Source: an uncultured Nitrospiraceae bacterium (GTDB taxonomy: Bacteria > Nitrospirota > Thermodesulfovibrionia > UBA6902). From it: a stretch of 25,655 nucleotides of DNA. The notes below the pieces were generated by a model. That model worked only from the letters and a program-made list of their open reading frames with translations. It did no database searches and was not told the origin of the DNA. The stretch spans positions 1 through 25,655 of the forward strand of contig CAYPIT010000001.1 in NCBI GenBank assembly GCA_964410825.1, given 5' to 3'. Positions 4,877-22,107 of the stretch are shown one piece after another. The position numbers and the translations under genes were made by a program. Each line of letters starts with the position of its first letter. The stretch's first letter is position 1.

Positions 4877-5194
4877 ATGAACGATTCCGCTCCAAATCAC
4901 CAGTCAAATTGGACAAACATACTTAAAGCGCTCGCTGATGAAAGCCGCCTGAAGATAATACACGAGCTTCTAAAAAAGGAATTGTCAGTACAGGACTTAT
5001 CGGATATTCTCGGCATAAAAATATATAACATGTCGAGACATCTTAAAGTTCTCGAGGCAACCGGGCTGGTTCAAAAAAGGAAAGATGGTGTTCAGAGATT
5101 TTACGATATCACCAATGATTTCAAGTCTCGATTTTCGGACGACAACCAAGTGTTGGATTTGGGGTGTTGCAAGTTTATATTTGAGGATCTGTAA
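4877..5194 (+). CDS. ArsR/SmtB family transcriptional repressor with C-terminal Cys-Cys
   Basis: LKALADESRLKII...ELSVQDLSDILG...NMSRHLKVLEATGLV...RKDG..RFY is the ArsR winged HTH. The only cysteines are C97-C98 in LDLGCC. Confidence 0.92.
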   Translation: MNDSAPNHQSNWTNILKALADESRLKIIHELLKKELSVQDLSDILGIKIYNMSRHLKVLEATGLVQKRKDGVQRFYDITNDFKSRFSDDNQVLDLGCCKFIFEDL

Positions 5195-5242
5195 AAGTAA
5201 ACATTTTTGATACTTTGCATCCTCCCCGCGCCTCAAAATATT

Positions 5243-5593
5243 TTATTCTTCATCAACCGGAAGGCCATATGCTGTCCATTCATCAATTCCACCTTCATAA
5301 ACCTTAACGTTTTTAATATTCAGTGATTGCAAACCAACAGCAACCTTCTTGGAAGCCTTGCAGTCCCTATGCTTACAATATATGATGATTTCGTCAAACA
5401 ATATTAAGTCTCTTCTTTTGTCGATTACCTCAGGATATGGAATTGTTTTCGCCCCTTTAATTTTTGATCTATTCCCATCATATTTGCCAATTGTATCAAC
5501 CAGCACAAAATTGGACTTTCCATTAATTCGGTTTAATAGCTCATCTTTATCTACACATTCTAAAGTTGTATTGAAATCTATTTTATAGGACAT
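5243..5593 (-). CDS. Single-domain rhodanese-like sulfurtransferase
   Basis: LVD...IKGAKTIP...IIIYCKHRDCKAS...VKVYEGGIDEW...GLPV matches the rhodanese fold with an active-site Cys. Strong RBS AAGGAGG upstream. Confidence 0.9.
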   Translation of the reverse strand: MSYKIDFNTTLECVDKDELLNRINGKSNFVLVDTIGKYDGNRSKIKGAKTIPYPEVIDKRRDLILFDEIIIYCKHRDCKASKKVAVGLQSLNIKNVKVYEGGIDEWTAYGLPVDEE

Positions 5594-5731
5594 TTACTCC
5601 TCCTTTGATATTTCTTTGAACATAGCATGGGAAAATAAACTCAGTCAATGGACACATTTTTTTTAGCAGCTCAAATATATTAATAACGCATTCGGCTTTA
5701 TTTATAATAATTATTTAGTTAAATTAAAATC

Positions 5732-8700
5732 ATGGCAAAACAGTCCAAAAGATTCGCAATGTTAGTCAACATTGACAGATGTGTTGGATGCTATGCGTGC
5801 CAGGTATCCTGCAAAGCAGAATATAATATCCCATTCGGGACCTTTCGATGCAAAGTTGAAACATATCATTCAGGCATCTACCCTCATAATAATAAGTTTT
5901 TTTTGCCTCGTCTTTGTAACCACTGCGAAAATGCTCCCTGTATAGAATCATGTGATGAAACAGCCTTGTTTAAAAATGATGACGGTATAGTTTTACTTGA
6001 TCACGATAAATGTACAGGCTGTCAGCAATGCTATGACAAATGCCCATATAATGCAATCGATATAAGACCGATCACTGGACAAGTTGAAAAATGCGACTTC
6101 TGTTACAGCAGAAGACTACTGAAAGGGCTTTTACCGGTATGTGTGCAGAGCTGTATGGGAAAGGCTATTACATTCGGCGATATAAATGACCCAAAGAGTG
6201 AGATAGTCTCCGTACTTGAACATTGCGATATCAAAGTCCTTAATCCTGAACTTAATGCTAATCCTTCTGTTTTTTATGTCTATAAAAGTGATTCATTGAA
6301 CTCCCCATTAAGAGATCACAAAATTACAATTAAAAGTTCAACTAAAAGTGCATCGACAGAACCGGCTGTCTCGCTTAATGAAGACTCTGCAAAAATTATA
6401 TATTCATCCTGTGCAATGTGTCCATCAGAATGCGGTATAGCAGTGGCAGTAGAAAACGGTTTTGCAAAAAAAATATATGGAAACCCTCACTCTTTAATAA
6501 ATAACGGAACATTATGCGCTAAGGGTGCCTCAGGGTTACAGCTTACTTACTCACCTTACAGAATCAAAACCCCTTTAATGAGGATCGGCAAGCGAGGTGA
6601 GGACAGATGGAAAGAAATAACCTGGGATGAGGCTTCCAAGCATATTGCTGTCAAGTTAATTGAAATTAAGAAAGCGCATGGCCCGGAATCTGTCTTCCTG
6701 AACTGCGGCGACGTTACTGACAGAGAAGCATATTACAGACTGTTTCATGCCTTTGGCACCCCAAATACATTTGATCATGGGAGTATCTGTGATCCCAATC
6801 GCAGATGGGGTCACGGTATTATGACTGGAGATGAAAGACCGCTACCTGATATACAGAGACCTTGTCTGTTAAGAAATAGTGAAGGAGAAATTCACTTGTA
6901 CAAAAACCATGATATCAAGCTTCTTCTGAACATCGGGGTTAATCCGCTCGTTGCAGCAAGATTCAATTACATGTCCAGTGGCATACCTGGAGCCAGAGAG
7001 GAAAATAAATGTAAATACATAGTCATTGATCCGTCCTTTACAAATTCTGCATCTCATGCGGATATCTGGCTTCCAATAAAACCTGGAACAGATGCCGCTC
7101 TGCTTGCATCCATGCTTTATCATATTATCTGTAATGATTCTCCGGATAATGCATCTCAAGGTTATATAGATCATGATTTTCTCAGAGATTATACGACTGG
7201 CTGGCAGGAATTCAAAGGCGCGTTTCTTTCGTATACTGACAAAAAAGACCCTTCGAATGAATTTAATTTTTTCACACCTGAGTGGGCAGAAAATATAACC
7301 GGGATTTCCGCTAATAATATAAAAAATATATCTCACCTGTTTGGCATAACAAAGCCTGCCGCTATCGAAATTGGAATGCACGGCACTGCCCACCACAGCA
7401 ACGGTGATGTCACATCAATACTCATGACAACCCTCTGCCTCATAACAGGTAACATGGATATTCCTGGAGGTTTGGTTTTTATAGACTCCCAAAAGGCAAA
7501 AAAAGGGGATTTCGTTGCAGGGAAGAAATTCCTCGAGAAAGTGACTAACAAAAAAGTAAACGGCTCAGATATACAAGGGAAACATTCAGAATTGCATAAA
7601 GACCTGTATGGTGATTTTCCGGCAGCATGGAGAGGCGTATTGGCTGATCTTCCCATGAAAATCAGAAAAGGGATTACGTTGAAACATGGCCCATTTAAAA
7701 ATTATAAATATCCGGTCAGGGCATTTATATCGAGAGCAGGCAATCCTGTCATGACAGCCGGAAACAGCCACGACTGGGTTAATGCGGTTACGGCCATGGA
7801 TAAAAACGGTGAATATACTCTCGATTTGATGGTCTTTATCGATACTCATATAACAGAGACCGGCAAATATGCGGATATAGTTCTTCCGGAGGCTGGTTAT
7901 TTAGAGCGAATCGGACTTAGTGATGTGTATACAATGAGTCCTGAAATAGCCATAAGAGACCAGGTTATCAAACCGCTTCATGGATCAAAAACCCCATTTG
8001 AAATAATGACCGTACTGGCTAATGCTCTTGTCAACAATGGTGACTCTGATATCAGACCTGAAGATTTCGAAAAATATATAAACGAAGAAGAGTTTATCAA
8101 TGACCTACTTAGAGAATCACCCGGATTTTATAATATCGGTTCACCACTTCCATATCCCGACCTTCCTGAAGGATGTTTAATAACAGGCATACCGGACAAT
8201 ACAACAGCAACCTGGGGTAACACAATTATAAAGAAAGGAGAACCTTTGACTGTTGATTGGCTGCGGAAAAATAACGGGGTAGCGGTCTGGCCTTCAAGTT
8301 ATTACCGTTACAAAAAAAAGGATGGTTCGCCATCCGGTGTTTATCCTAAAACCGGGTCAAAGAAGTTTGAATTTAAGTTCGGTTACCTTGCAAAAATCAA
8401 CTCACGCCTGGGGACAAATTTCCCTTCTACCTTCTATTGGTCAGAATCCAAATGGAGCCATGGAAACGAATCATTTAATGACGCTGTCAAAGAATATCCT
8501 TTTCAACTTATTAGCGGCAGAGCTCATTATGCAATGACTATGACCGGAATCTGCCCATACCTTGCAGAGACTAACACAGAATGTATGCAGCCATTAAACA
8601 ATGAATTTCAGCATATTGTACCGGAAGTTAAAAACATTCCTGAAGAATACGGGATTTCGGCGGGTAAGATTACATTCAAGTCAGGAACTGTTTCAATTCC

Positions 8701-9007
8701 TGTGCTTGCACTTAATAAAACGGATGGTGATCATCTGAATTTAAAGACAGGAGACATTATTATTCTCGAAAACCCTTTGAAAAACAGAATGCAGGGCAAG
8801 GTCTTTTTAACCGAAGATGTAATGCCGGGAGTTATAAAAACCGCCTTTGGGCCTGGGGGTCAAAAGGCGTCCGGTGCAGGTTTGTTAAATCATACTTCAT
8901 TTTATACACAAAATATTAACAGGCTCTTCAACACCAAAAACCTTTCCCCTTTTACCGGGATGCCGGGATTCGGAGACATTATAGTAAAGATTATTAAACA
9001 CAACTAA
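5732..9007 (+). CDS. Fused 4x[4Fe-4S] electron-transfer domain + Mo/W-bisPGD oxidoreductase catalytic domain (Psr/Phs/Soe-like clade of the DMSO reductase family)
   Basis: Residues about 1-184: CVGCYACQVSC, LCNHCENAPCIESC, CTGCQQCYDKC, KCDFC...CVQSC (PsrB/NrfC/DmsB type). Then a Ser/Thr/Lys linker, SCAMCPSECG...LCAKG (FS0 cluster), GTPNTFDHGSIC (putative Cys353 Mo ligand), IDPSFTNSASHADIWLPIKPGTD, ADIVLPEAGYLER and C-terminal YPFQLISGR. No twin-arginine leader. Confidence 0.9.
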   Translation: MAKQSKRFAMLVNIDRCVGCYACQVSCKAEYNIPFGTFRCKVETYHSGIYPHNNKFFLPRLCNHCENAPCIESCDETALFKNDDGIVLLDHDKCTGCQQCYDKCPYNAIDIRPITGQVEKCDFCYSRRLLKGLLPVCVQSCMGKAITFGDINDPKSEIVSVLEHCDIKVLNPELNANPSVFYVYKSDSLNSPLRDHKITIKSSTKSASTEPAVSLNEDSAKIIYSSCAMCPSECGIAVAVENGFAKKIYGNPHSLINNGTLCAKGASGLQLTYSPYRIKTPLMRIGKRGEDRWKEITWDEASKHIAVKLIEIKKAHGPESVFLNCGDVTDREAYYRLFHAFGTPNTFDHGSICDPNRRWGHGIMTGDERPLPDIQRPCLLRNSEGEIHLYKNHDIKLLLNIGVNPLVAARFNYMSSGIPGAREENKCKYIVIDPSFTNSASHADIWLPIKPGTDAALLASMLYHIICNDSPDNASQGYIDHDFLRDYTTGWQEFKGAFLSYTDKKDPSNEFNFFTPEWAENITGISANNIKNISHLFGITKPAAIEIGMHGTAHHSNGDVTSILMTTLCLITGNMDIPGGLVFIDSQKAKKGDFVAGKKFLEKVTNKKVNGSDIQGKHSELHKDLYGDFPAAWRGVLADLPMKIRKGITLKHGPFKNYKYPVRAFISRAGNPVMTAGNSHDWVNAVTAMDKNGEYTLDLMVFIDTHITETGKYADIVLPEAGYLERIGLSDVYTMSPEIAIRDQVIKPLHGSKTPFEIMTVLANALVNNGDSDIRPEDFEKYINEEEFINDLLRESPGFYNIGSPLPYPDLPEGCLITGIPDNTTATWGNTIIKKGEPLTVDWLRKNNGVAVWPSSYYRYKKKDGSPSGVYPKTGSKKFEFKFGYLAKINSRLGTNFPSTFYWSESKWSHGNESFNDAVKEYPFQLISGRAHYAMTMTGICPYLAETNTECMQPLNNEFQHIVPEVKNIPEEYGISAGKITFKSGTVSIPVLALNKTDGDHLNLKTGDIIILENPLKNRMQGKVFLTEDVMPGVIKTAFGPGGQKASGAGLLNHTSFYTQNINRLFNTKNLSPFTGMPGFGDIIVKIIKHN

Positions 9008-9196: not shown

Positions 9197-10273
9197 ATGA
9201 AAAAAACTTCTGAATTGCAGAAACTCCGATCTAAAATCGACAAGATCGACCTGAAGATAGTTGAACTGCTAAATGAGAGGGCACAGATAGTCCTGGAAGT
9301 GGGCAGGGCTAAACAGAGCAACCGGCTGAAGATTCATTCCCAGGTAAGAGAAAAAGCGATATTGCGCAAACTTCAGGAGAGTAATACAGGACCTTTCCCT
9401 AATGAAGCACTGAAACTGATTTATGAAGAAATCCTGTCAGCTTCGGTCGCTCTCCAGCAACCTTTAAAGATTGCCTATCTGGGACCGTCTGCAACCTTCA
9501 CACATTTTGCAGCGAGACGAAAATTCGGGTCATCTTCGGAGTACCTGCCGGAAAGCACGATAAAAGAAGTTTTTGAGGCGGTTTTCAGGAACAAGGTAAA
9601 TTACGGAGTAGTGCCTATCGAAAACTCTACAGAAGGTGTAGTCAACTACACTCTCGATATGTTTATGGATTCAGATTTAATGATCTCATCCGAAATTGTG
9701 CTTGAAATATCGCATAACTTACTGTCAAAGTTGGGGCAAAAAGCAAGTGTCCGGAAAATTTACTCACATCCTCAGGCAAAGGCGCAGTGTCGAAGCTGGC
9801 TCGAGAGAAATTTTCCGGGTGTGCAGATTATTGATGAGATCAGTACAGCTGCCGCCGCAAAGCGCGCATCAAGGTCTCCTGATTCTGCGGCTGTCGCCAG
9901 TGAATTGGCGGCCTCCGTATACGGCCTGAAGATTATTGAAAAAAGCATCGAAGACAACAAGAAAAACGTTACAAGATTTATGGTAATTGCAAAGGAATCA
10001 CCTGGCAAAACAGGAAAAGATAAGACATCAATAATGTTCACCATTAAAGACAAGCCCGGTGCGCTGTTCTTGATTTTACGTCCCTTTTCAAGGCATAAAA
10101 TAAATCTTACAAAAATCGAGTCAAGACCTTCAAAAAGAAAGGCATGGGAATATATGTTCTTTGTGGATATGGAAGGGCATATTGATGATAAAAACGTCAT
10201 GAAGGCGATAAAGGATGTTCAAAAGGAGTGCCTGTTTTTTAAAGTGCTCGGTTCATACCCTTCGGCAGAATAA
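9197..10273 (+). CDS. pheA: Bifunctional chorismate mutase/prephenate dehydratase (P-protein) with ACT domain
   Basis: LRSKIDKIDLKIVELLNERA (CM type II), IAYLGPSATFT, VPIENSTEG, NVTRFMVI, NLTKIESRP, WEYMFFVD. Confidence 0.97.
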   Translation: MKKTSELQKLRSKIDKIDLKIVELLNERAQIVLEVGRAKQSNRLKIHSQVREKAILRKLQESNTGPFPNEALKLIYEEILSASVALQQPLKIAYLGPSATFTHFAARRKFGSSSEYLPESTIKEVFEAVFRNKVNYGVVPIENSTEGVVNYTLDMFMDSDLMISSEIVLEISHNLLSKLGQKASVRKIYSHPQAKAQCRSWLERNFPGVQIIDEISTAAAAKRASRSPDSAAVASELAASVYGLKIIEKSIEDNKKNVTRFMVIAKESPGKTGKDKTSIMFTIKDKPGALFLILRPFSRHKINLTKIESRPSKRKAWEYMFFVDMEGHIDDKNVMKAIKDVQKECLFFKVLGSYPSAE

Positions 10274-10320
10274 ATGAATAAGGATTCAAGGGGTCTAGGC
10301 TCGAACCCTTCAGTTTTTAT

Positions 10321-11403
10321 ATGATTAAAGCACCGAACCACATAAGCGAAATTAAACCTTACATCCCCGGAATGCCGATTGAAGAGCTTGAAAGAGAACT
10401 CGGAATTAGCGGTTCTGTCAAGCTGGCTTCCAATGAAAACCCTGTCGGCCCGTCACCTCTTGCGATCAGGGCTCTGCGCAAAGAGATTGGTGAATTAAAC
10501 AGATATCCTGATGGAAACTGTCATTATCTGAGAAATGCTTTGTCCGACAAGCTAAACATCCGGCGTGATCAACTGATATTCGGCAACGGCTCAAATGAGA
10601 TTATCGAACTGGCTGTCAGAACGTTTCTCAGTCCAGGTGACGAAGCGATAATGGCGCATCCTTCTTTTGTAGTGTATTCAACTATTGTGCAGGCTGTAAA
10701 AGGAAAAAGTATTATTGTCCCGCTCAAAGACTGGCGCCATGACCTTAACGCAATGGCCGCTAAAATTACTGACAAGACCAGACTGATCTTTATAGCAAAT
10801 CCAAATAATCCTACCGGCACTATTAACACTCAAGATGAAATAGATTCATTTATGAAGCAGGTCCCTGATGACATACTGGTGATTATTGATGAAGCATATT
10901 ATGAGTATGTTGTTTCTCCTGATTATCCGCAGAGCATAAATTACCTGAAACATAACAGGGATATTTTAATACTTAGAACGTTTTCCAAAATTTGTGGGCT
11001 TGCAGGTCTTAGAATCGGATATGGAATCACCACAAACTTGATAAGCACCGAAATGAATAAAGTTCGCCAGCCTTTTAATGTAAACTTCCTTGCCCAGACA
11101 GCCGCCCTTGCAGCGTTGAATGACGATAATCATCTGGAAAAATCAAGAAAAATAAACGAAAGAGGCAAGAACTACCTTTATAAAGAACTTAAAAAATTAG
11201 GCCTGAGGTATATACCGACAGAAGCAAATTTCATATTTATACCTTTTAAAAACAAAATATCTGCTGAATTGTACAGTTCTCTATTAAATAAAGGAATTAT
11301 TATCAGACCTATGGGACCTGAAGCAGCACGAGTTACTATAGGAACGCCAAAGGAAAATAAATTATTGATCGAAGCATTGAGAAAATCAATCGTAAGTTTA
11401 TGA
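10321..11403 (+). CDS. hisC: Histidinol-phosphate/aromatic aminotransferase (PLP class II)
   Basis: KLASNENP, NRYPD, GNGSNEII, NPNNPTG, IDEAYYEY, RTFSKICGLAGLRIGY. Confidence 0.95.
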   Translation: MIKAPNHISEIKPYIPGMPIEELERELGISGSVKLASNENPVGPSPLAIRALRKEIGELNRYPDGNCHYLRNALSDKLNIRRDQLIFGNGSNEIIELAVRTFLSPGDEAIMAHPSFVVYSTIVQAVKGKSIIVPLKDWRHDLNAMAAKITDKTRLIFIANPNNPTGTINTQDEIDSFMKQVPDDILVIIDEAYYEYVVSPDYPQSINYLKHNRDILILRTFSKICGLAGLRIGYGITTNLISTEMNKVRQPFNVNFLAQTAALAALNDDNHLEKSRKINERGKNYLYKELKKLGLRYIPTEANFIFIPFKNKISAELYSSLLNKGIIIRPMGPEAARVTIGTPKENKLLIEALRKSIVSL

Positions 11404-11428
11404 AGATTGGAGGACAGTTTAACTCGTC

Positions 11429-12283
11429 ATGGATTTCAAACATGTAGCTATCATAGGCGTTGGACTTATCGGAAGTTCAGTCGCCCTTTCATTAAAGAAA
11501 GCAGGTTTCAATGGGAAAATATCTGGAATAGGAAGAAAGGAAGAAAATTTAGCCAGGGCCGGGGAACTCGGAATAATCGATTCGTTCACAACTTCACATG
11601 CTGAAGGTGTGAGAAATGCTGACCTCATTATACTGGCTTCTTCTGTACAGCATTTTAAACAGATTATAACAGACATAAAGGATGAGCTTAAAGAGGGTGC
11701 AATTGTAACAGATGTAGGAAGTGTTAAAGCAGAGATTGTAAATCAACTTGAACTTATTATGCCTGATGGAGTAAGTTTTGTAGCCGGCCACCCCATAGCA
11801 GGAAAAGAATATTCCGGCATAAACGCTGCATCTCCTGATCTTTTCAATAATGCAAAATGCGTAATCACTCCCACTGCAAACACAGATAAAAAGGCGCTGG
11901 AGAAAATCCGTGACTTCTGGGAATTTATAGGAACCGGCACAATAGTGATGAGCCCGGAAGAACATGACTCTATTTTTGCAGCGGTAAGCCACCTTCCTCA
12001 TATAGCGGCATACGCCCTGATTAATGCAATTAATGACGTTAACAAAGATATGTTACAGTTCAGCGGCAAGGGATTAAAAGATATGACGCGGATCGCTCTA
12101 AGTCCTACATCGCTTTGGCGGGATATATGCAGCTATAACAGGAAAGATATTATCCTGTCACTGAAAAGCTTCTCATCTTCGATCTCTCGAATGATACAAT
12201 TTTTTGAAGAATCAGACTGGGAGGGTCTGGAAAAAGAATTCAAAAGGGCTAACGAGGCAAGACAGCTCATTGAATCAGATTAA
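11429..12283 (+). CDS. tyrA: Prephenate/arogenate dehydrogenase
   Basis: IIGVGLIGSS Rossmann motif, TDVGSVK, FVAGHPIAGKE, HDSIFAAVSHLPH, DMTRIA. Confidence 0.95.
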   Translation: MDFKHVAIIGVGLIGSSVALSLKKAGFNGKISGIGRKEENLARAGELGIIDSFTTSHAEGVRNADLIILASSVQHFKQIITDIKDELKEGAIVTDVGSVKAEIVNQLELIMPDGVSFVAGHPIAGKEYSGINAASPDLFNNAKCVITPTANTDKKALEKIRDFWEFIGTGTIVMSPEEHDSIFAAVSHLPHIAAYALINAINDVNKDMLQFSGKGLKDMTRIALSPTSLWRDICSYNRKDIILSLKSFSSSISRMIQFFEESDWEGLEKEFKRANEARQLIESD

Positions 12284-13580
12284 TATAAAATACAGGGGCT
12301 CTCTCCGCGGAGAAATTATCTCCCCTCCAGACAAATCAATTTCCCATCGTGCAATAATGCTTTCATCCCTCGCTAATGGGAAAAGTATTATAAATAATTT
12401 CCTGCGCGCAGAAGATCCCATGAGAACTATCGAGGCCTTAAGGCAGATGGAAATCGAAATAGAGTTCAGAGTTAAGAGTAAGGAGTTAAGAGAGCGGTCC
12501 AACGAAATAATAATTAAGGGCAAAGGATTGACCGGACTTAAAGAACCTGCCGGCACAATAGACTGTGGGAACTCGGGAACAACAATGAGGCTTTTGAGCG
12601 GAGTACTCGCAGGACAGCCATTTTCTTCACAGTTAACCGGAGACTCGTCGTTAAAAAGCAGGCCCATGCAAAGGATAATAACACCACTCTCACAGATGGG
12701 AGCAATTATCAGCTCTGAAAGAGATGGCTATCCACCTCTTAAAATAAAAGGTGGTTCTTTGCGGCCTATCAGTTACAGTTCTCCTGTTGCTAGCGCACAG
12801 GTTAAATCAGCAATACTCCTGGCAGGGCTTTATTGTGACGGTATAACAAGAGTTATTGAACCCGGAAAATCAAGGGATCATACTGAAAGAATGCTAATGG
12901 CATGCGGTGCAGACATTAATGTAGAGAATTCTACTGTTACCGTCAGAGGGATGGAACCTCTGAATCCTATAGATGTCACAATCCCGGGTGATCTCTCATC
13001 AGCTGCATATTTCATAGTAGCGGGATTGTTAGTACCTGAATCAGAAATATTGATCAGGGACACTGGTATAAATTCTACAAGAACAGGAGTAATAGACATT
13101 TTAAAAATGATGGGTGCAGACTTAAGGCTGGAGAACATGAGGGACGTATCAGGAGAACCTGTTGCAGACATATTTGTTAAATATTCAAAGCTTAAAGGTA
13201 TAGATATCAAAACTGATGAAATTCTGAGAGCGATTGATGAATTTCCCATAATATGTATAGCAGCCTCCTGTGCCGAAGGTGTTACCAGAATTACCGGTGA
13301 TAGAGAGCTGCGGGTGAAGGAGTCGGACAGGATAGCATCTATGGCTTCAGAATTAATGAAAATGGGAGTAGCGGTCGAGGAACTTGAAGATGGTCTTGTC
13401 ATTGAAGGCACGGACGAACTGCAGGCTGCATCTGTTAACAGTCATGGAGACCACAGAATTGCGATGTCTCTGGCTATAGCAGGGCTTACGGCCAAAGGAC
13501 AGATAACTATATCAGACACGGACTGTGTAAACACATCCTTCCCAGAATTTATGGCTTTGATAGAAGGTCTTCAGCATTGA
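12270..13580 (+). CDS. aroA: 3-phosphoshikimate 1-carboxyvinyltransferase (EPSP synthase, class II)
   Basis: PDKSISHRA, DCGNSGTTMRL, RPMQRI, SAQVKSA, RDHTERML, LRVKESDRI, HGDHRIAM. Start moved from 12204 to the in-frame TTG at 12270, which overlaps the tyrA end; the exact start is uncertain. Confidence 0.95.
   Translation: MNQINIKYRGSLRGEIISPPDKSISHRAIMLSSLANGKSIINNFLRAEDPMRTIEALRQMEIEIEFRVKSKELRERSNEIIIKGKGLTGLKEPAGTIDCGNSGTTMRLLSGVLAGQPFSSQLTGDSSLKSRPMQRIITPLSQMGAIISSERDGYPPLKIKGGSLRPISYSSPVASAQVKSAILLAGLYCDGITRVIEPGKSRDHTERMLMACGADINVENSTVTVRGMEPLNPIDVTIPGDLSSAAYFIVAGLLVPESEILIRDTGINSTRTGVIDILKMMGADLRLENMRDVSGEPVADIFVKYSKLKGIDIKTDEILRAIDEFPIICIAASCAEGVTRITGDRELRVKESDRIASMASELMKMGVAVEELEDGLVIEGTDELQAASVNSHGDHRIAMSLAIAGLTAKGQITISDTDCVNTSFPEFMALIEGLQH
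12461..12495 (+). repeat. Imperfect heptamer tandem repeat inside aroA
   Basis: agagttc-agagtta-agagtaa-ggagtta-agagagc, five 7-nt units. Confidence 0.7.
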
Positions 13581-19903: not shown

Positions 19904-20416
19904 CTAATGCTCTTCTCTCTCCCGACTGAATCCGATTTTCTGTTTTTTCTTCTCCGGAGCTTCCATAAGGCTATAGATAGCCTCGAATACTACTTTAAAT
20001 TGCTTATCATACTTTTTTTCAAGGGCCTTGAGCTTACGTGCAAGCTGGGCATTTGAAACAAGCATTTTACGGAGCTTTACAAAAGTTCGCATTATTTCTA
20101 TGTTAACCTGCACCGCTCTATCGCTTTTAAGTACACTCGACAGCATAGCTACTCCCTGCTCTGTAAATGCAAAAACATTAGGTGCATGCTTTATTCTGGA
20201 ACTTATCACAATTTGTGATAAGTTCATAATTTCAGCCCTGGTTAAAGCAAACATAAAATCTTCAGGGAATCGTTTAATATTTCTTTTTACCGCCTGATTT
20301 AATACTCTTGTCTCTACACCATAAAGTTCGGCCAAATCCCTGTCAATCATCACCTTTTGGCGCCTAATCAGGTAAATCCTTTTCTCAACAACTTCCTGCG
20401 GAATAAGCTTGTTCAT
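19904..20416 (-). CDS. ORF6N (KilA-N-like) domain DNA-binding protein
   Basis: [71 protein letters not shown]-terminal KIGF. Confidence 0.93.
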
Positions 20417-20723
20417 AATTGTCCCCCTAAATAATACTCTAACGTCGCACGTCGGTCGTCAAACGACGCTTAGGCGTTCCAGCGGTTTATTTAAATTGAA
20501 ATCTTCAACCCATGTCCCTTACTGGAATTGATTATACCATAATAATACGCTCCTCGCCGGGTGAGGTTTAACAGAGATAATTAAGTGGACGACTTGTTTA
20601 AACCAGTCTTACACCTTTCTCTGTTTTGCAATAATCTCCACACATATTTACTGTAAGTATTATAATTTACAGAATAATTTATGGCTTAGTATATGACAAG
20701 GGGCATTCAATGGGGCTATAACG

Positions 20724-20903
20724 ATGCTGGGGATCTTCGACAATATCGAACAATCATTATTACCTCCTTTGCAGGAAACCCTTCAGGTATCTGATCGCAC
20801 TGATTATTGTGTTGGTTATTTTAATCTTCGTAGGTGGACAAGTTTGATTCTTACAAAAAAATATTTTCGTAGGAAAATTATAAGGTTTGATATATTTTAT
20901 TAA
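20724..20903 (+). pseudogene. 5' stub of a PLD-domain/SNF2-type helicase gene (restriction-modification associated)
   Basis: [38 protein letters not shown] resembles the recognisable N-terminus (IFDN...[12 protein letters not shown]) of about 1000-aa PLD+helicase proteins. It breaks into an unrelated tail and stops after 59 aa. Confidence 0.65.
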
Positions 20904-20907
20904 TTAA

Positions 20908-21434
20908 ATGCTACTGGATAACAAGACAAAAACTGAAGGCAGTGAGCATTCAACGGTATATGATTTTTTAGTTAATTATATCGCACAGGAGAAGCCTTCA
21001 CGCATGGAACCGGGCCGGGTAAGCTTCTGGAGATTGATAAGCGACAGCTTCTTCTTGATTTTCCGGATGACCCGGAGCCGGAGAGCATATTCCCTTCATG
21101 CTCTGTCTGTTCCTCAATTAATGATCTGCATTTTGTAGAAGTACACGACAAAGAGCATTTTTCAAGCATTTACTGTAGTGAATGCAGAAAGATAAGGTCT
21201 GCCACTGTTAACACAAGCATTCCCTTACCTTTACTGAATCGCCGTCTGCTCTATCGTGTGCTTAATATGAATAATATTGAAAAACTTGATGATTCAGTCA
21301 AGACATATCAGGAACAATTAGATACAGAGTTTGCCGGCAAATGGGAAGAGATAGCAAAAACAATGAAATCAAAAAATCCCGAAGAACAGGATAAATTGTT
21401 TGAATTTGATGATGACCAGGGTAAACTGATATAA
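20908..21434 (+). pseudogene. Frameshifted hypothetical protein with two CxxC motifs (putative Zn ribbon)
   Basis: ATG 20908 frame reads MLLDNKTKTEGSEHSTVYDFLVN. A different frame is open 20976-21434 (152 codons: LYRTGEAFTHGTGPGK...PSCSVCSSINDLHFVEVHDKEHFSSIYCSECRK...EFDDDQGKLI*) with no early start. One extra base near 20975 would join them into about 175 aa. Confidence 0.55.
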
Positions 21435-21453
21435 AAATATTGTTTTATGATTT

Positions 21454-21546
21454 ATGATTAGTGATGAATTAAGAAGTAAATTAATCAACTTTCGAAAAAA
21501 ACGAACGGTATCAGCATTAGATTCTATCGAGGTTGAACCTCGATAA
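21454..21546 (+). pseudogene. 5' stub resembling a MazG-like (dCTP pyrophosphatase-type) nucleotide pyrophosphohydrolase
   Basis: MISDELRSKLINFRKKR resembles the family N-terminus that normally continues xWEQFH; here it diverges and stops after 30 aa. Confidence 0.4.
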
Positions 21547-21752
21547 TTTTATTAAGAGAAAATTATTATAGACATCGACATGCATTTGAAAGAAATTGTA
21601 GAAAAGATCAAGAGTCATTTTAAGGATATTATAGGAACGATTATTTATCCTGCTGCGCATAAAGAAACGGTGCTTTATGAAAGATGATAAAATAACTATA
21701 GTAAAGGTATTATGCAGGTAGCAATATGACCTGAAATATAGGAGGAATAATT

Positions 21753-22040
21753 ATGATTCTGAAGGAAGAGCTTGATAAAGCCATTGAGATTGCCAAAAAA
21801 CATGAGATAGGAAAGTTATATCTGATTGGGTCTGCTCTCTACAATGAGGAGAAAGATATTAATGACTATGATTTTGCAGTAATGGATGTGCCTCCCGAGA
21901 GTTTTTTTAAATTCTATGGAGAAATGTTGCGAACTTTATCGAAACGTGTGGATATTATCGATCTTTCAGGCAAAGCAACAAAATTTAAAAGTATTGTTAT
22001 GAGGGAGGGAGAGGTTGTCTATGACAGATCAGCAGCTTAA
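21753..22040 (+). CDS. Minimal nucleotidyltransferase (MNT, putative antitoxin)
   Basis: LYLIGSALYNEEKDINDYDFAV (GS...DxD), RVDIIDL, EGEVVYDR; 95 aa; RBS GGAGG. Confidence 0.88.
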   Translation: MILKEELDKAIEIAKKHEIGKLYLIGSALYNEEKDINDYDFAVMDVPPESFFKFYGEMLRTLSKRVDIIDLSGKATKFKSIVMREGEVVYDRSAA

Positions 22041-22056
22041 AGAATGCAGACCTTAA
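22021..22056 (+). pseudogene. Possible 11-codon stub of the HEPN partner gene overlapping the MNT stop
   Basis: ATG at 22021 inside the MNT tail (MTDQQLKECRP*). The overlap matches the usual MNT-HEPN coupling, but there is too little sequence to identify it. Confidence 0.3.
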
Positions 22057-22107
22057 GCCAGAGCGATTTTGATTTTTTATATAAAGCAATTCAAAACATA
22101 ATTTATC

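What the first reader, a model, noticed from the sequence alone, without database searches (positions are those of the whole stretch)
4877..9007. Stand-alone ArsR + rhodanese + fused Fe-S/Mo-enzyme module: candidate new cytoplasmic sulfur (or metalloid) redox system
Seen: three genes inserted between unrelated loci. The rhodanese and the Mo enzyme are divergent across a 138-bp AT-rich spacer, and the ArsR gene converges on the rhodanese. No NrfD/PsrC anchor, TorD chaperone or Tat leader is present. Known: Psr/Phs/Ttr/Soe/Arr enzymes are normally A+B(+C) complexes, and rhodaneses carry sulfane sulfur, for example Sud to Psr in Wolinella. Inference: a soluble cytoplasmic enzyme that takes or delivers persulfide sulfur via the rhodanese, under thiol-reactive ArsR control. 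Possible roles are sulfane/thiosulfate/sulfite interconversion (e.g. sulfur disproportionation or detoxification) or As/Se/Sb oxyanion reduction.
Basis: partly seen in the sequence, partly recalled or inferred. Interest (0 to 1): 0.75.

Follow-up and report, generated by a model that had tools for sequence, protein, structure and literature searches.

The report
Cytoplasmic fused iron-sulfur molybdoenzyme, importer-linked
The three genes are real, but the large enzyme belongs to an undescribed cytoplasmic branch of molybdenum reductases (closest characterised relative: the antimonate reductase AnrA) whose deepest conserved partner is an amino-acid-type ABC importer, not the neighbouring rhodanese.

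Summary
In detail: ArsR-family regulator (4877-5194 +), 116-aa rhodanese (5243-5593 -) and a 1091-aa fusion of a four-cluster Fe-S module to a Mo/W-bisPGD catalytic module (5732-9007 +). The fusion has no Tat motif and no membrane segment, and the window holds no NrfD or TorD gene.

The enzyme is not a Psr/Phs member. It forms a clade with fused enzymes from Clostridia (99.5% NJ bootstrap). That clade is sister (100%) to a Tat-exported clade that includes Geobacter sp. SVR WP_173201954.1, which I recall as the antimonate reductase AnrA.

In 33 non-redundant Nitrospirota loci, ArsR is upstream in 23 and the rhodanese in 19. The closest relatives (89-90% identical) lack the rhodanese. The same rhodanese subfamily also sits in unrelated contexts. 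No Clostridial operon has either gene.

The partner conserved across phyla is a polar-amino-acid-type ABC importer. Its binding protein is 57-61% identical between phyla, and in some Nitrospirota a permease is translationally fused to the enzyme.

Best reading: a soluble reductase of an imported, amino-acid-like substrate, here under a Cys-Cys ArsR repressor. The substrate is unknown. This is a new variant of a known kind.

The parts
4877..5194 (+). ArsR/SmtB-family winged-helix repressor, 105 aa. The classical ELCVCDL metal site is replaced by ELSVQDL. An invariant C-terminal motif VLDLGCCKF (Cys97-Cys98) is the only candidate sensor site.
   Evidence: NF033788 78.3 bits against cutoff 55; BigR model 49.5 against 155. 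Ortholog alignment. PDB alignments.
5243..5593 (-). Single-domain rhodanese, 116 aa, with conserved active-site loop I-Y-C-K-H-[KR]-x-C (CX4C). It has a good Shine-Dalgarno sequence (GGAGG). It is a lineage-specific subfamily.
   Evidence: only 215 homologues, all about 116 aa, and Nitrospirota where named; also found in other contexts.
5594..5731 (.). 138-bp divergent spacer at 26% GC. Its 3' part holds a conserved promoter-like element, TTTATT-17 nt-TAAATT, ending about 6 nt before the enzyme ATG, with no Shine-Dalgarno sequence. It is a candidate promoter/ArsR operator and suggests a leaderless mRNA.
   Evidence: The element is present in ArsR-linked loci and absent from loci without ArsR.
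5732..6391 (+). N-terminal four-cluster Fe-S module (PsrB/TtrB/AnrB type, residues 1-~195) plus a weakly conserved linker (~196-220). The 16 Cys ligands are invariant: C17/20/23/27, C62/65/70/74, C94/97/100/104, C121/124/137/141. There is no Tat signal.
   Evidence: (2vpw_B, 3e-40).
6392..9007 (+). Mo/W-bisPGD catalytic module (residues 221-1091). The FS0 cluster motif is C227-x2-C230-x3-C234-x27-C262. The predicted metal ligand is Cys353, in HGSICDPNRRWG. The module is about 870 aa, with the same extended C-terminal architecture as the AnrA clade.
   Evidence: Cys353 aligns with PsrA Cys173.; pLDDT 90.9. ArrA, PsrA and acetylene hydratase are the top structural matches.

Best explanation
The 1091-aa gene encodes a soluble cytoplasmic two-electron reductase of the Mo/W-bisPGD superfamily. 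A four-[4Fe-4S] electron-transfer subunit has been fused in front of the catalytic subunit. Electrons from a soluble low-potential donor (probably ferredoxin; inferred) would pass through five Fe-S clusters to a Cys353-ligated Mo or W centre.

The enzyme belongs to an undescribed clade present in Thermodesulfovibrionia-type Nitrospirota and in Clostridia. That clade is sister to the Tat-exported clade containing Geobacter sp. SVR WP_173201954.1, which I recall as the antimonate reductase AnrA. It is not part of Psr/Phs.

Across both phyla the conserved partner is a polar-amino-acid-type ABC importer with a dedicated, highly conserved family-3 binding protein. In one Nitrospirota subclade a permease is fused to the enzyme. 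The most likely mode of action (inferred) is import of an alpha-amino-acid-like compound carrying a reducible S-S, S-O, Se or N-O group, followed by its reduction in the cytoplasm. My leading specific guess is a sulfur amino-acid derivative such as cystine, S-sulfocysteine or an amino-acid sulfoxide. This guess is low-confidence.

In the window's lineage the importer genes are not at the locus. The enzyme has its own promoter next to an ArsR-family repressor that has lost the canonical metal sites and keeps an invariant C-terminal Cys-Cys pair, so it probably senses a thiol-reactive ligand. The divergently transcribed CX4C rhodanese is an optional accessory, perhaps handling a thiol or sulfane product. 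It is not an obligatory sulfur carrier.
For: Architecture and location. AF2 model: pLDDT 90.9, pTM 0.91. Nearest structures are ArrA, PsrA and acetylene hydratase.

Clade structure. The whole Nitrospirota family collapses into one 50% cluster. The next hit is P0122/P0271, at 45% identity over residues 215-1089. A-domain identity to the window is 61-73% for Nitrospirota, 50-52% for the Clostridial fused group and 44-48% for the AnrA clade. NJ bootstraps: NIT+CLO 99.5%, plus ANR 100%, with PhsA outside. Of 268 columns conserved within each group, 36 unite NIT+CLO against AnrA, including positions flanking Cys353, while only 5 unite CLO+AnrA.

AnrA lead. P0271 is Geobacter sp. SVR WP_173201954.1. 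Its locus is X-S-R-B-A-TorD-Tat, with the Tat signal MQISRRLFLQ. Strain SVR respires Sb(V), and the title of the AnrA paper appears.

Importer link. All 5 non-redundant Clostridial loci with flanks have SBP_bac_3 - enzyme - ATPase::SBP - permease - permease. 8 of 33 Nitrospirota loci have ABC or SBP genes next to the enzyme. Permease fusions are recurrent. The SBP is 57-61% identical between phyla and keeps the Arg and Asp that, from my knowledge of LAO/HisJ-type binders, hold the alpha-carboxylate and alpha-amino groups.

ArsR and rhodanese statistics and motifs.
Against: No importer gene lies in the 25.6-kb window. Whether this genome has one elsewhere could not be checked.

The substrate is not identified. 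Cys-ligated enzymes of this superfamily are known for inorganic S, As, Sb and N substrates and formate. I know of no characterised Cys-ligated member that acts on an amino acid.

The ArsR/rhodanese/TauE combination in some loci and the AnrA relationship would fit inorganic sulfur or a metalloid equally well.

The conserved position upstream of pheA (13 of 24 loci) shows that part of the co-occurrence is inherited gene order rather than function.

No electron donor is encoded nearby. There are no expression data. The trees are NJ only and lack named PsrA/SoeA/TtrA/ArrA references.
Confidence: 0.6

Rival explanations
1. This is a cytoplasmic inorganic-sulfur enzyme (persulfide, polysulfide or thiosulfate reductase, or a disproportionation enzyme) that receives or delivers sulfane sulfur through the rhodanese. 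For example, the rhodanese cleaves thiosulfate to a persulfide plus sulfite, and the Mo enzyme reduces the persulfide to sulfide. Expression is controlled by a persulfide-sensing ArsR.
For: PhsA is the best NCBIfam hit (264 bits) and PsrAB the best PDB sequence hit. The rhodanese is present in 19 of 33 loci, with an invariant CX4C loop. A TauE/SafE-family permease lies between ArsR and the rhodanese in some loci. BigR is the second-best ArsR model. The host lineage is Thermodesulfovibrionia-type Nitrospirota.
Against: All named-family scores are far below cutoffs, and PhsA lies outside the clade. The rhodanese is missing from the closest relatives (L001/L063), from 14 of 33 loci and from every Clostridial operon. 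The same rhodanese subfamily occurs beside cobO and methyltransferase genes. The ArsR lacks the alpha-2 Cys aligned to the Cys of HlyU, which I take to be the position of the first BigR/SqrR sensor Cys. An amino-acid-type importer is not expected for inorganic sulfur anions.
Confidence: 0.17
2. This is a cytoplasmic metalloid reductase acting on Sb(V), As(V), Se oxyanions or a pentavalent organo-arsenical/antimonial. It would be an intracellular counterpart of AnrAB, controlled by an ArsR whose vicinal Cys pair binds the trivalent product.
For: It is sister to the clade containing the Geobacter sp. SVR enzyme. The motif around the ligand, HGSICD(P/T)xR(R/K), is shared. The C-terminal vicinal Cys pair recalls the AfArsR/SpArsR type-2 site; SpArsR has only the two Cys and responds to MAs(III) (PMC11868830). 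The rhodanese fold is also that of Acr2-type arsenate reductases (established knowledge).
Against: 36 clade-specific substitutions separate the fused enzymes from AnrA, several of them next to the metal ligand. No ArsB/Acr3/ArsP efflux gene and no AioX-like sensor lies at any fused-enzyme locus. The gene is vertically inherited at a housekeeping position, whereas the AnrA clade is patchy across phyla. The importer is of amino-acid type. The identity of WP_173201954.1 as AnrA rests on my memory of an abstract I could not open. Alignment of the Cys pair to AfArsR could not be tested.
Confidence: 0.12
3. The enzyme works in the oxidative direction as a dehydrogenase, for example like the cytoplasm-facing sulfite dehydrogenase SoeABC or ArxA, feeding electrons into soluble carriers.
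For: Cytoplasmic orientation is shared with SoeA. The direction of catalysis cannot be read from the sequence.
Against: There is no SoeC-type anchor or quinone-reactive partner. The nearest characterised relative is a reductase. The Clostridial hosts are fermenters with an importer operon, which fits consumption of an external oxidant better. No SoeA reference could be placed in the tree.
Confidence: 0.05

Closest known systems
AnrAB, dissimilatory antimonate reductase of Geobacter sp. SVR (WP_173201954.1; Kambara et al. 2024, AEM 90:e01729-23; identity of the accession recalled, paper not readable here)
   Same: It is the closest non-family homologue. Identity is 44-48% over the whole ~870-aa catalytic module, including the unusual C-terminal extension. 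The HGSICD ligand motif is shared, as is Asp as the first FS0 ligand in most members. The gene order is B before A, and the B subunit is 38% identical.
   Different: AnrA is a separate, Tat-exported periplasmic subunit with a TorD chaperone and an X-S-R sensor system. The window enzyme is fused, has no signal and is cytoplasmic. 36 positions conserved within both groups differ between them (N356P, W359H, H550Q, G551S, D559Y and others). The partners are ArsR/rhodanese or an ABC importer.
Polysulfide reductase PsrABC (Thermus thermophilus, 2VPW) and thiosulfate reductase PhsABC
   Same: These are the best PDB sequence matches for both modules (PsrB 3e-40, PsrA 1e-36). PhsA is the best NCBIfam model. 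The Cys metal ligand aligns, as does the four-cluster B module.
   Different: PhsA scores far below its cutoff (264 against 694 bits). PhsA falls outside the clade in the tree. There is no Tat signal, no NrfD/PsrC or PhsC anchor and no quinol link. The catalytic module is about 130 aa longer.
Respiratory arsenate reductase ArrAB (Shewanella sp. ANA-3, 6CZ7)
   Same: It is the top structural neighbour of the model (E 7e-44, TM 0.75 on the target). It has a Cys ligand and is a soluble A-B pair without an obligatory membrane subunit.
   Different: It is periplasmic. ArrA scores 156 bits against a cutoff of 1600. Sequence identity is about 20%.
SoeABC sulfite dehydrogenase and BisC (cytoplasm-facing or cytoplasmic Mo-bisPGD enzymes)
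   Same: The active site lies in the cytoplasm and there is no Tat export.
   Different: SoeABC has a membrane anchor and works oxidatively. BisC has no Fe-S module and, as I recall, a Ser ligand. bisC_fam scores only 90 bits against a cutoff of 1018. SoeA was not tested phylogenetically.
ActB of alternative complex III
   Same: It is a natural fusion of A-like and B-like modules of this superfamily (PMC10100899).
   Different: ActB has lost the pterin cofactor and most clusters and belongs to a membrane complex. The window protein keeps all ligand motifs and has the Fe-S module at the N-terminus.
ArsR/SmtB repressors with C-terminal Cys sites (AfArsR Cys95/96/102; SpArsR with two vicinal Cys)
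   Same: A small winged-helix repressor with a vicinal Cys pair near the C-terminus as the only plausible sensor.
   Different: There is no third Cys. No detectable specific similarity to AfArsR in the PDB search. The ligand is unknown, and there are no ars genes nearby.

Membership tests
Mo/W-bisPGD (DMSO reductase) superfamily, complex iron-sulfur type | N-terminal FS0 [4Fe-4S] motif, molybdopterin-binding domains I-IV and a protein ligand to the metal | tested here: met
   PF04879, PF00384 and PF01568 all score above their cutoffs. The FS0 motif is C227/C230/C234/C262, and Cys353 aligns with PsrA Cys173. The fold matches ArrA and PsrA.
Mo/W-bisPGD superfamily, complex iron-sulfur type | Four-cluster ferredoxin-like B subunit | tested here: met
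   Fer4_11 scores 92.7 bits. All 16 Cys are invariant in 36 homologues. PsrB (2vpw_B) matches at 3e-40. Here the subunit is fused to A.
Psr/Phs (polysulfide/thiosulfate reductase) | Sequence membership (NCBIfam PhsA equivalog; clustering with PhsA) | tested here: not met
   264 bits against a cutoff of 694. PhsA lies in a different clade in the NJ trees.
Psr/Phs (polysulfide/thiosulfate reductase) | Tat export and a membrane quinol-oxidising subunit (PsrC/NrfD or PhsC) | tested here: not met
   No twin-arginine motif and no TM segment. No NrfD or PhsC gene in the window or adjacent to the enzyme in relatives; the nearest is a partial NrfD gene about 6 kb upstream in L049/L050.
AnrA (dissimilatory antimonate reductase) | Membership of the clade of Geobacter sp. 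SVR WP_173201954.1 | tested here: not met
   It is a sister group, not a member. The AnrA clade is monophyletic at 100% and excludes the window protein, at 44-48% identity.
AnrA (dissimilatory antimonate reductase) | Periplasmic location with Tat signal, TorD-type chaperone and anrXSR sensor genes | tested here: not met
   All 8 sampled AnrA proteins carry SRRxFL; none of the 14 fused proteins does. No TorD or PhnD-like sensor gene at fused-enzyme loci.
AnrA (dissimilatory antimonate reductase) | Sb(V) reductase activity | not testable with these tools
   This needs an enzyme assay.
ArrA (respiratory arsenate reductase) | NCBIfam equivalog score | tested here: not met
   156 bits against a cutoff of 1600.
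SoeABC (cytoplasmic sulfite dehydrogenase) | Cytoplasm-facing A-B with a SoeC membrane anchor; clustering with SoeA | tested here: inconclusive
   Cytoplasmic orientation is met. No anchor gene is present. No SoeA reference sequence was available for the tree.
ArsR/SmtB transcription factors | Winged helix-turn-helix of the HTH_5 type | tested here: met
   PF01022 scores 39 against 22. NF033788 scores 78.3 against 55.
ArsR type 1 (R773) As(III) sensor | CVC motif in the DNA-binding helix (ELCVCDL) | tested here: not met
   The aligned segment is ELSVQDL in the window, and E[SA]SVQDL in the other orthologues.
BigR/SqrR persulfide- or sulfite-sensing ArsR | Equivalog score and a Cys pair in alpha-2 and alpha-5 | tested here: not met
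   NF040642 scores 49.5 against 155. The alpha-2 position aligned to the Cys of HlyU is His. Only the C-terminal CC pair is present.
AfArsR/SpArsR type 2 sensors | Vicinal Cys pair (plus or minus a third Cys) at the C-terminal helix | tested here: inconclusive
   Cys97-Cys98 are invariant, and the feature is described in PMC11868830. No AfArsR match appeared in the PDB search, and alignments stop before the C-terminus.
Rhodanese sulfurtransferases | Rhodanese fold with a catalytic Cys in the active-site loop | tested here: met
   PF00581 scores 41.7 against 22.2. The YCKH[KR]xC loop is conserved. Activity was not tested.
rhodanese_LYCAU (seleno)protein | NCBIfam equivalog score | tested here: not met
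   37 bits against a cutoff of 115.

The most novel reading that the evidence does not exclude
The fused enzymes of Nitrospirota and Clostridia, including human-gut bacteria, would define a new kind of 'import-coupled reduction' system. A polar-amino-acid-type ABC importer with a dedicated binding protein would hand an amino-acid-like oxidant directly to a cytoplasmic Fe-S/Mo reductase. In some lineages the reductase is physically fused to the permease. This would give anaerobes a previously unrecognised electron sink or salvage route for an organic S-, Se- or N-oxidised amino acid. The window's ArsR-CC/rhodanese version would be a derived regulatory variant.
Probability: 0.35. Interest if true: 0.8.

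Novelty: new variant of a known kind. Interest (0 to 1): 0.6.

Why it matters
Cys-ligated Mo/W-bisPGD enzymes with Fe-S subunits are textbook periplasmic or membrane-bound respiratory reductases. A cytoplasmic, single-polypeptide B-A version has not, as far as I could find, been described. Its conserved tie to an amino-acid-type ABC importer, and its occasional fusion to a permease, add to this.

It occurs in widespread groundwater and sediment Nitrospirota. It also occurs in cultured and gut Clostridia, so its substrate can be found experimentally: Acetivibrio straminisolvens is in culture.

It is also the nearest relative of the recently identified antimonate reductase. That makes it useful for working out which residues set substrate specificity in that clade. 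It also serves as a warning against annotating such genes as anrA, psrA or phsA in metagenomes.

Tried and rejected
1. First AF2 run with 36 close homologues gave pLDDT 60 and was discarded. A 136-sequence alignment that included the AnrA clade gave 90.9.
2. Public-run search found only DNA contigs holding at most 18% of the sampled words and no RNA runs, so there is no expression evidence.
3. Rfam and tRNA scans of the window found nothing.
4. Inverted-repeat search of the two AT-rich spacers gave no convincing ArsR operator palindrome. The conserved element looks like a promoter.
5. Literature searches for this family returned nothing relevant (Thermodesulfovibrionia + molybdopterin + rhodanese; cytoplasmic/fused polysulfide reductase; bis-MGD + ABC transporter). 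The 'cytoplasmic polysulfide reductase' papers were listed but not opened.
6. The AnrA paper could not be opened, and no held paper cites the accession.
7. The single-protein scan of genome contigs found only three true family loci. The other 40 were conventional A-then-B enzymes at 24-46% identity, with no ArsR or rhodanese homologue detected in their flanks.
8. I considered a functional link to the downstream aromatic amino-acid operon. I rejected it as inherited synteny, because Clostridial and several Nitrospirota loci lack it.
9. The plasmid tblastn search served only to obtain a named PhsA reference.

Full report
**Observation.** Pfam and NCBIfam confirm the domain content. The large protein has a Fer4_11 four-cluster module (about residues 1-195), a linker, then Molybdop_Fe4S4, Molybdopterin and Molydop_binding domains (221-1091). 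The rhodanese/enzyme spacer is 138 bp at 26% GC. ArsR and the rhodanese converge, with 48 bp between their stop codons. The enzyme has no twin-arginine motif and no hydrophobic segment. None of the window ORFs I scanned is an NrfD/PsrC, PhsC or TorD homologue. The four I did not scan (9197-13580) correspond by synteny to aromatic amino-acid genes annotated in relatives. The trio has the same GC content as the window (0.394 against 0.392), so nothing suggests recent acquisition.

**Anatomy of the enzyme.** All 16 Cys of the four ferredoxin-type clusters are invariant in 36 homologues: C17/20/23/27, C62/65/70/74, C94/97/100/104 and C121/124/137/141. The catalytic module carries the FS0 motif C227-x2-C230-x3-C234-x27-C262. 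In most relatives and in the AnrA clade the first ligand is Asp rather than Cys. Cys353, in HGSICDPNRRWG, aligns with the Mo ligand Cys173 of Thermus PsrA. With a 136-sequence alignment AlphaFold gives pLDDT 90.9 and pTM 0.91 for the whole chain. This indicates a defined packing of the Fe-S module on the catalytic module. The nearest solved folds are ArrA, PsrA and acetylene hydratase. What is shown: a complete, cofactor-competent B-A fusion without export signal or anchor. What is inferred: electrons enter from a soluble donor and run through five clusters to a Cys-ligated Mo or W.

**Where it belongs.**
- No named family is reached. PhsA scores 264 bits against a cutoff of 694, ArrA 156 against 1600 and dmsA_ynfE 203 against 778.
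- A word-index search found more than 100 full-length homologues at 58-89% identity. Nearly all are from Nitrospirota or Thermodesulfovibrionia MAGs with generic names.
- An exhaustive search of 50%-identity representatives collapses the whole family into one cluster. The next hit is P0122 (948 aa, 45% identity over residues 215-1089, 829 bits). Everything else scores 463 bits or less.
- P0122's cluster contains WP_173201954.1 of Geobacter sp. SVR, an antimonate-respiring isolate.
- Its locus reads: PhnD-like binding protein, histidine kinase, sigma-54 regulator, 221-aa Fe-S subunit, catalytic subunit, TorD-like chaperone, TatA/TatC, then MoeA/MoaA. The catalytic subunit begins MQISRRLFLQ.
- I recall from the abstract of Kambara et al. 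2024 (AEM 90:e01729-23; its title is cited) that this accession was identified as AnrA and that the operon is anrXSRBAD. I could not open the paper. This identification is therefore a well-matching recollection, not a result obtained here.
- The AnrA-like clade is patchily spread over many phyla at 62-97% identity.

**A second fused group.** A metagenome scan with the family alignment recovered full-length fused homologues at 42-49% identity (best tblastn segment) in addition to Nitrospirota loci. They map to Clostridia: Acetivibrio straminisolvens WP_322597249.1, Pseudobacteroides, and abundant unnamed clusters; one locus (L104) comes from a human-gut metagenome. A-domain identity to the window is 61-73% within Nitrospirota, 50-52% to the Clostridial group and 44-48% to AnrA.

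A 200-replicate NJ bootstrap gives:
- Nitrospirota + Clostridia: 99.5%.
- That pair + AnrA: 100%.
- Plus a further group of signal-less unfused enzymes: 99.5%.
- E. coli plasmid PhsA falls outside (an earlier tree is).

Of 268 columns conserved within each of the three groups, 209 are identical in all. 36 unite the two fused groups against AnrA, including N356P and W359H beside the metal ligand, and H550Q, G551S and D559Y. Only 5 unite Clostridia with AnrA. All eight sampled AnrA proteins have a Tat motif; none of the 14 fused proteins does. I therefore treat the fused enzymes as one probably isofunctional cytoplasmic clade, related to AnrA but distinct from it.

**Neighbourhoods.** I reduced 69 loci to 50 non-redundant ones (with additions). 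Counts for the 33 Nitrospirota-clade loci with at least 1 kb upstream:

| Feature next to the enzyme | Loci |
|---|---|
| ArsR upstream | 23 of 33 |
| Rhodanese upstream | 19 of 33 |
| Both | 17 of 33 |
| ABC-importer genes or a family-3 binding protein | 8 of 33 |
| None of these | 4 of 33 |
| pheA operon downstream (loci with enough downstream flank) | 13 of 24 |

- Where the rhodanese is absent, ArsR sits about 90 bp upstream on the same strand. This includes the closest relatives, L001 and L063 at 89-90% identity.
- The frequent pheA operon downstream and glycosyltransferase upstream show that the chromosomal position is inherited.
- The rhodanese subfamily is small (215 hits), about 116 aa, and Nitrospirota where named. 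In two genomes it lies beside cobO and corrinoid-methyltransferase genes rather than the enzyme.
- All five Clostridial loci with flanks have the same core and neither ArsR nor rhodanese. The core is a family-3 binding protein, the fused enzyme, an ABC ATPase carrying a second SBP-like domain, and two permeases. MobA or MobB lies nearby in three of the five.
- The same two permease types and ATPase flank the enzyme in Nitrospirota loci L003, L078, L110 and L067.
- In a Nitrospirota subclade the second permease is fused in frame to the enzyme, giving about 1360 aa. About five TM segments are followed by a Lys/Arg-rich linker, which fits a cytoplasmic enzyme domain.
- The binding protein next to the enzyme in Nitrospirota (L072, L068, L110) is 57-61% identical to the Clostridial one, which is more conserved than the enzyme itself.
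- The binding protein keeps an Arg (..SHTRSRDE..) and an Asp (..FTQDS..). From my knowledge of LAO/HisJ-type binders these hold the alpha-carboxylate and alpha-amino groups.
- NCBIfam places transporter and binding protein in the polar amino-acid (Gln/cystine/Arg/ectoine) group.
- The next-closest, unfused clade also shows two such permeases beside the enzyme in Photobacterium, inside a nitrogenase-like cluster.

**The regulator and the rhodanese.**
- The ArsR protein has lost the ELCVCDL site (ELSVQDL in the window) and has no His/Asp alpha-5 site.
- The alpha-2 position aligned to the Cys of HlyU, where I expect the first BigR-type sensor Cys, is His.
- The only conserved candidate sensor is VLDLGCCKF near the C-terminus.
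- This resembles the type-2 site of AfArsR (Cys95/96/102) and especially SpArsR, which has only the vicinal pair and responds to methylarsenite (PMC11868830). I could not align them, so this is a lead, not a test.
- The rhodanese has an invariant I-Y-C-K-H-[KR]-x-C loop.
- A conserved TTTATT-17-TAAATT element ends about 6 nt before the enzyme ATG in ArsR-linked loci and is missing where ArsR is absent. It looks like the enzyme's own promoter, possibly giving a leaderless mRNA, and is the likely place of repression.

**Mechanism.**
- Best-supported: a cytoplasmic reductase whose substrate is delivered by a dedicated amino-acid-type ABC importer.
- In the window lineage the importer genes are not at the locus, and the gene is under a thiol-based ArsR repressor. 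The rhodanese is an optional accessory.
- The substrate is not identified. The importer type and the absence of any further catabolic gene in the Clostridial operons suggest that one reduction step yields an ordinary metabolite. Candidates are cystine or S-sulfocysteine to cysteine, an amino-acid sulfoxide to the thioether, and possibly N-O compounds.
- The AnrA relationship and the ArsR type keep a metalloid or selenium substrate possible.
- My estimates: 0.6 for the general importer-coupled cytoplasmic reductase model, 0.17 for the rhodanese-coupled inorganic sulfur model, 0.12 for a metalloid reductase and 0.05 for an oxidative role.

**Novelty and verdict.** I found no description of this clade. 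It is a new variant of a known kind: a familiar superfamily in an unfamiliar architecture, location and partnership. The location and the novelty hold. The assignment to Psr/Phs/Ttr-like chemistry and the obligatory rhodanese coupling do not.

Noticed in passing
L048:6001-10092; L053:8001-12083; L101 (proteins P0088, P0092, P0095, P0096, P0099-P0102, P0104, P0107, P0111, P0114, P0116): In a Nitrospirota subclade an ABC permease (BPD_transp_1, about 5 TM) is translationally fused to the Fe-S/Mo enzyme, giving about 1360 aa. Fusion of a transporter membrane domain to a redox enzyme is unusual.
   Followed up: partly
L096:10261-11766 and equivalents in L088-L100 and L104: In the Clostridial operons the ABC ATPase carries a C-terminal SBP_bac_3 domain (501 aa). 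This puts a binding-protein-like domain on the cytoplasmic nucleotide-binding subunit. It may be a trans-inhibition or ligand sensor.
   Followed up: no
L061:1-10667 (Photobacterium): A signal-less relative of the enzyme (P0128) sits in a cluster with a radical-SAM gene, a NifH-like gene, two NifD/K-like genes, a NifB-like gene, two ABC permeases and a DHDPS-like gene. This is reminiscent of nitrogenase-like organosulfur-salvage systems.
   Followed up: no
window 6410-6412 (codon of Cys227): The first FS0 cluster ligand is Asp in nearly all family members and in most AnrA-clade proteins (D-x2-C-x3-C). It is Cys in the window protein and in one AnrA-clade protein.
   Followed up: partly
window 5694-5731: A conserved TTTATT-17 nt-TAAATT element ends about 6 nt before the enzyme start codon, and there is no Shine-Dalgarno sequence. 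This suggests a leaderless transcript. The arsR start also lacks a Shine-Dalgarno sequence, whereas the rhodanese has GGAGG.
   Followed up: partly
L115:5458-6351; L117:5266-6351: The same rhodanese subfamily (66-69% identical) lies directly downstream of a cobO-type corrinoid adenosyltransferase gene, near URO-D/MtrH/B12-binding methyltransferase genes, and not near the Mo enzyme.
   Followed up: partly
window 19904-22100: An ORF6N-domain gene lies on the minus strand. It is followed by about 1.7 kb with only short ORFs, one of them a 95-aa nucleotidyltransferase-like ORF at 21753-22040, at lower GC (0.35-0.37). This may be a decayed mobile or toxin-antitoxin remnant upstream of RNase R.
   Followed up: no
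P0106, P0115, P0120 (about 950 aa): These apparent 'unfused' versions begin inside the Fe-S module (MGRALLFGD...). They are probably truncated gene calls or frameshifts rather than true A-only proteins.
   Followed up: no
L049:6235-6571: The ArsR gene of this MAG is split into two overlapping ORFs. This is either a frameshift or an assembly error.
   Followed up: no
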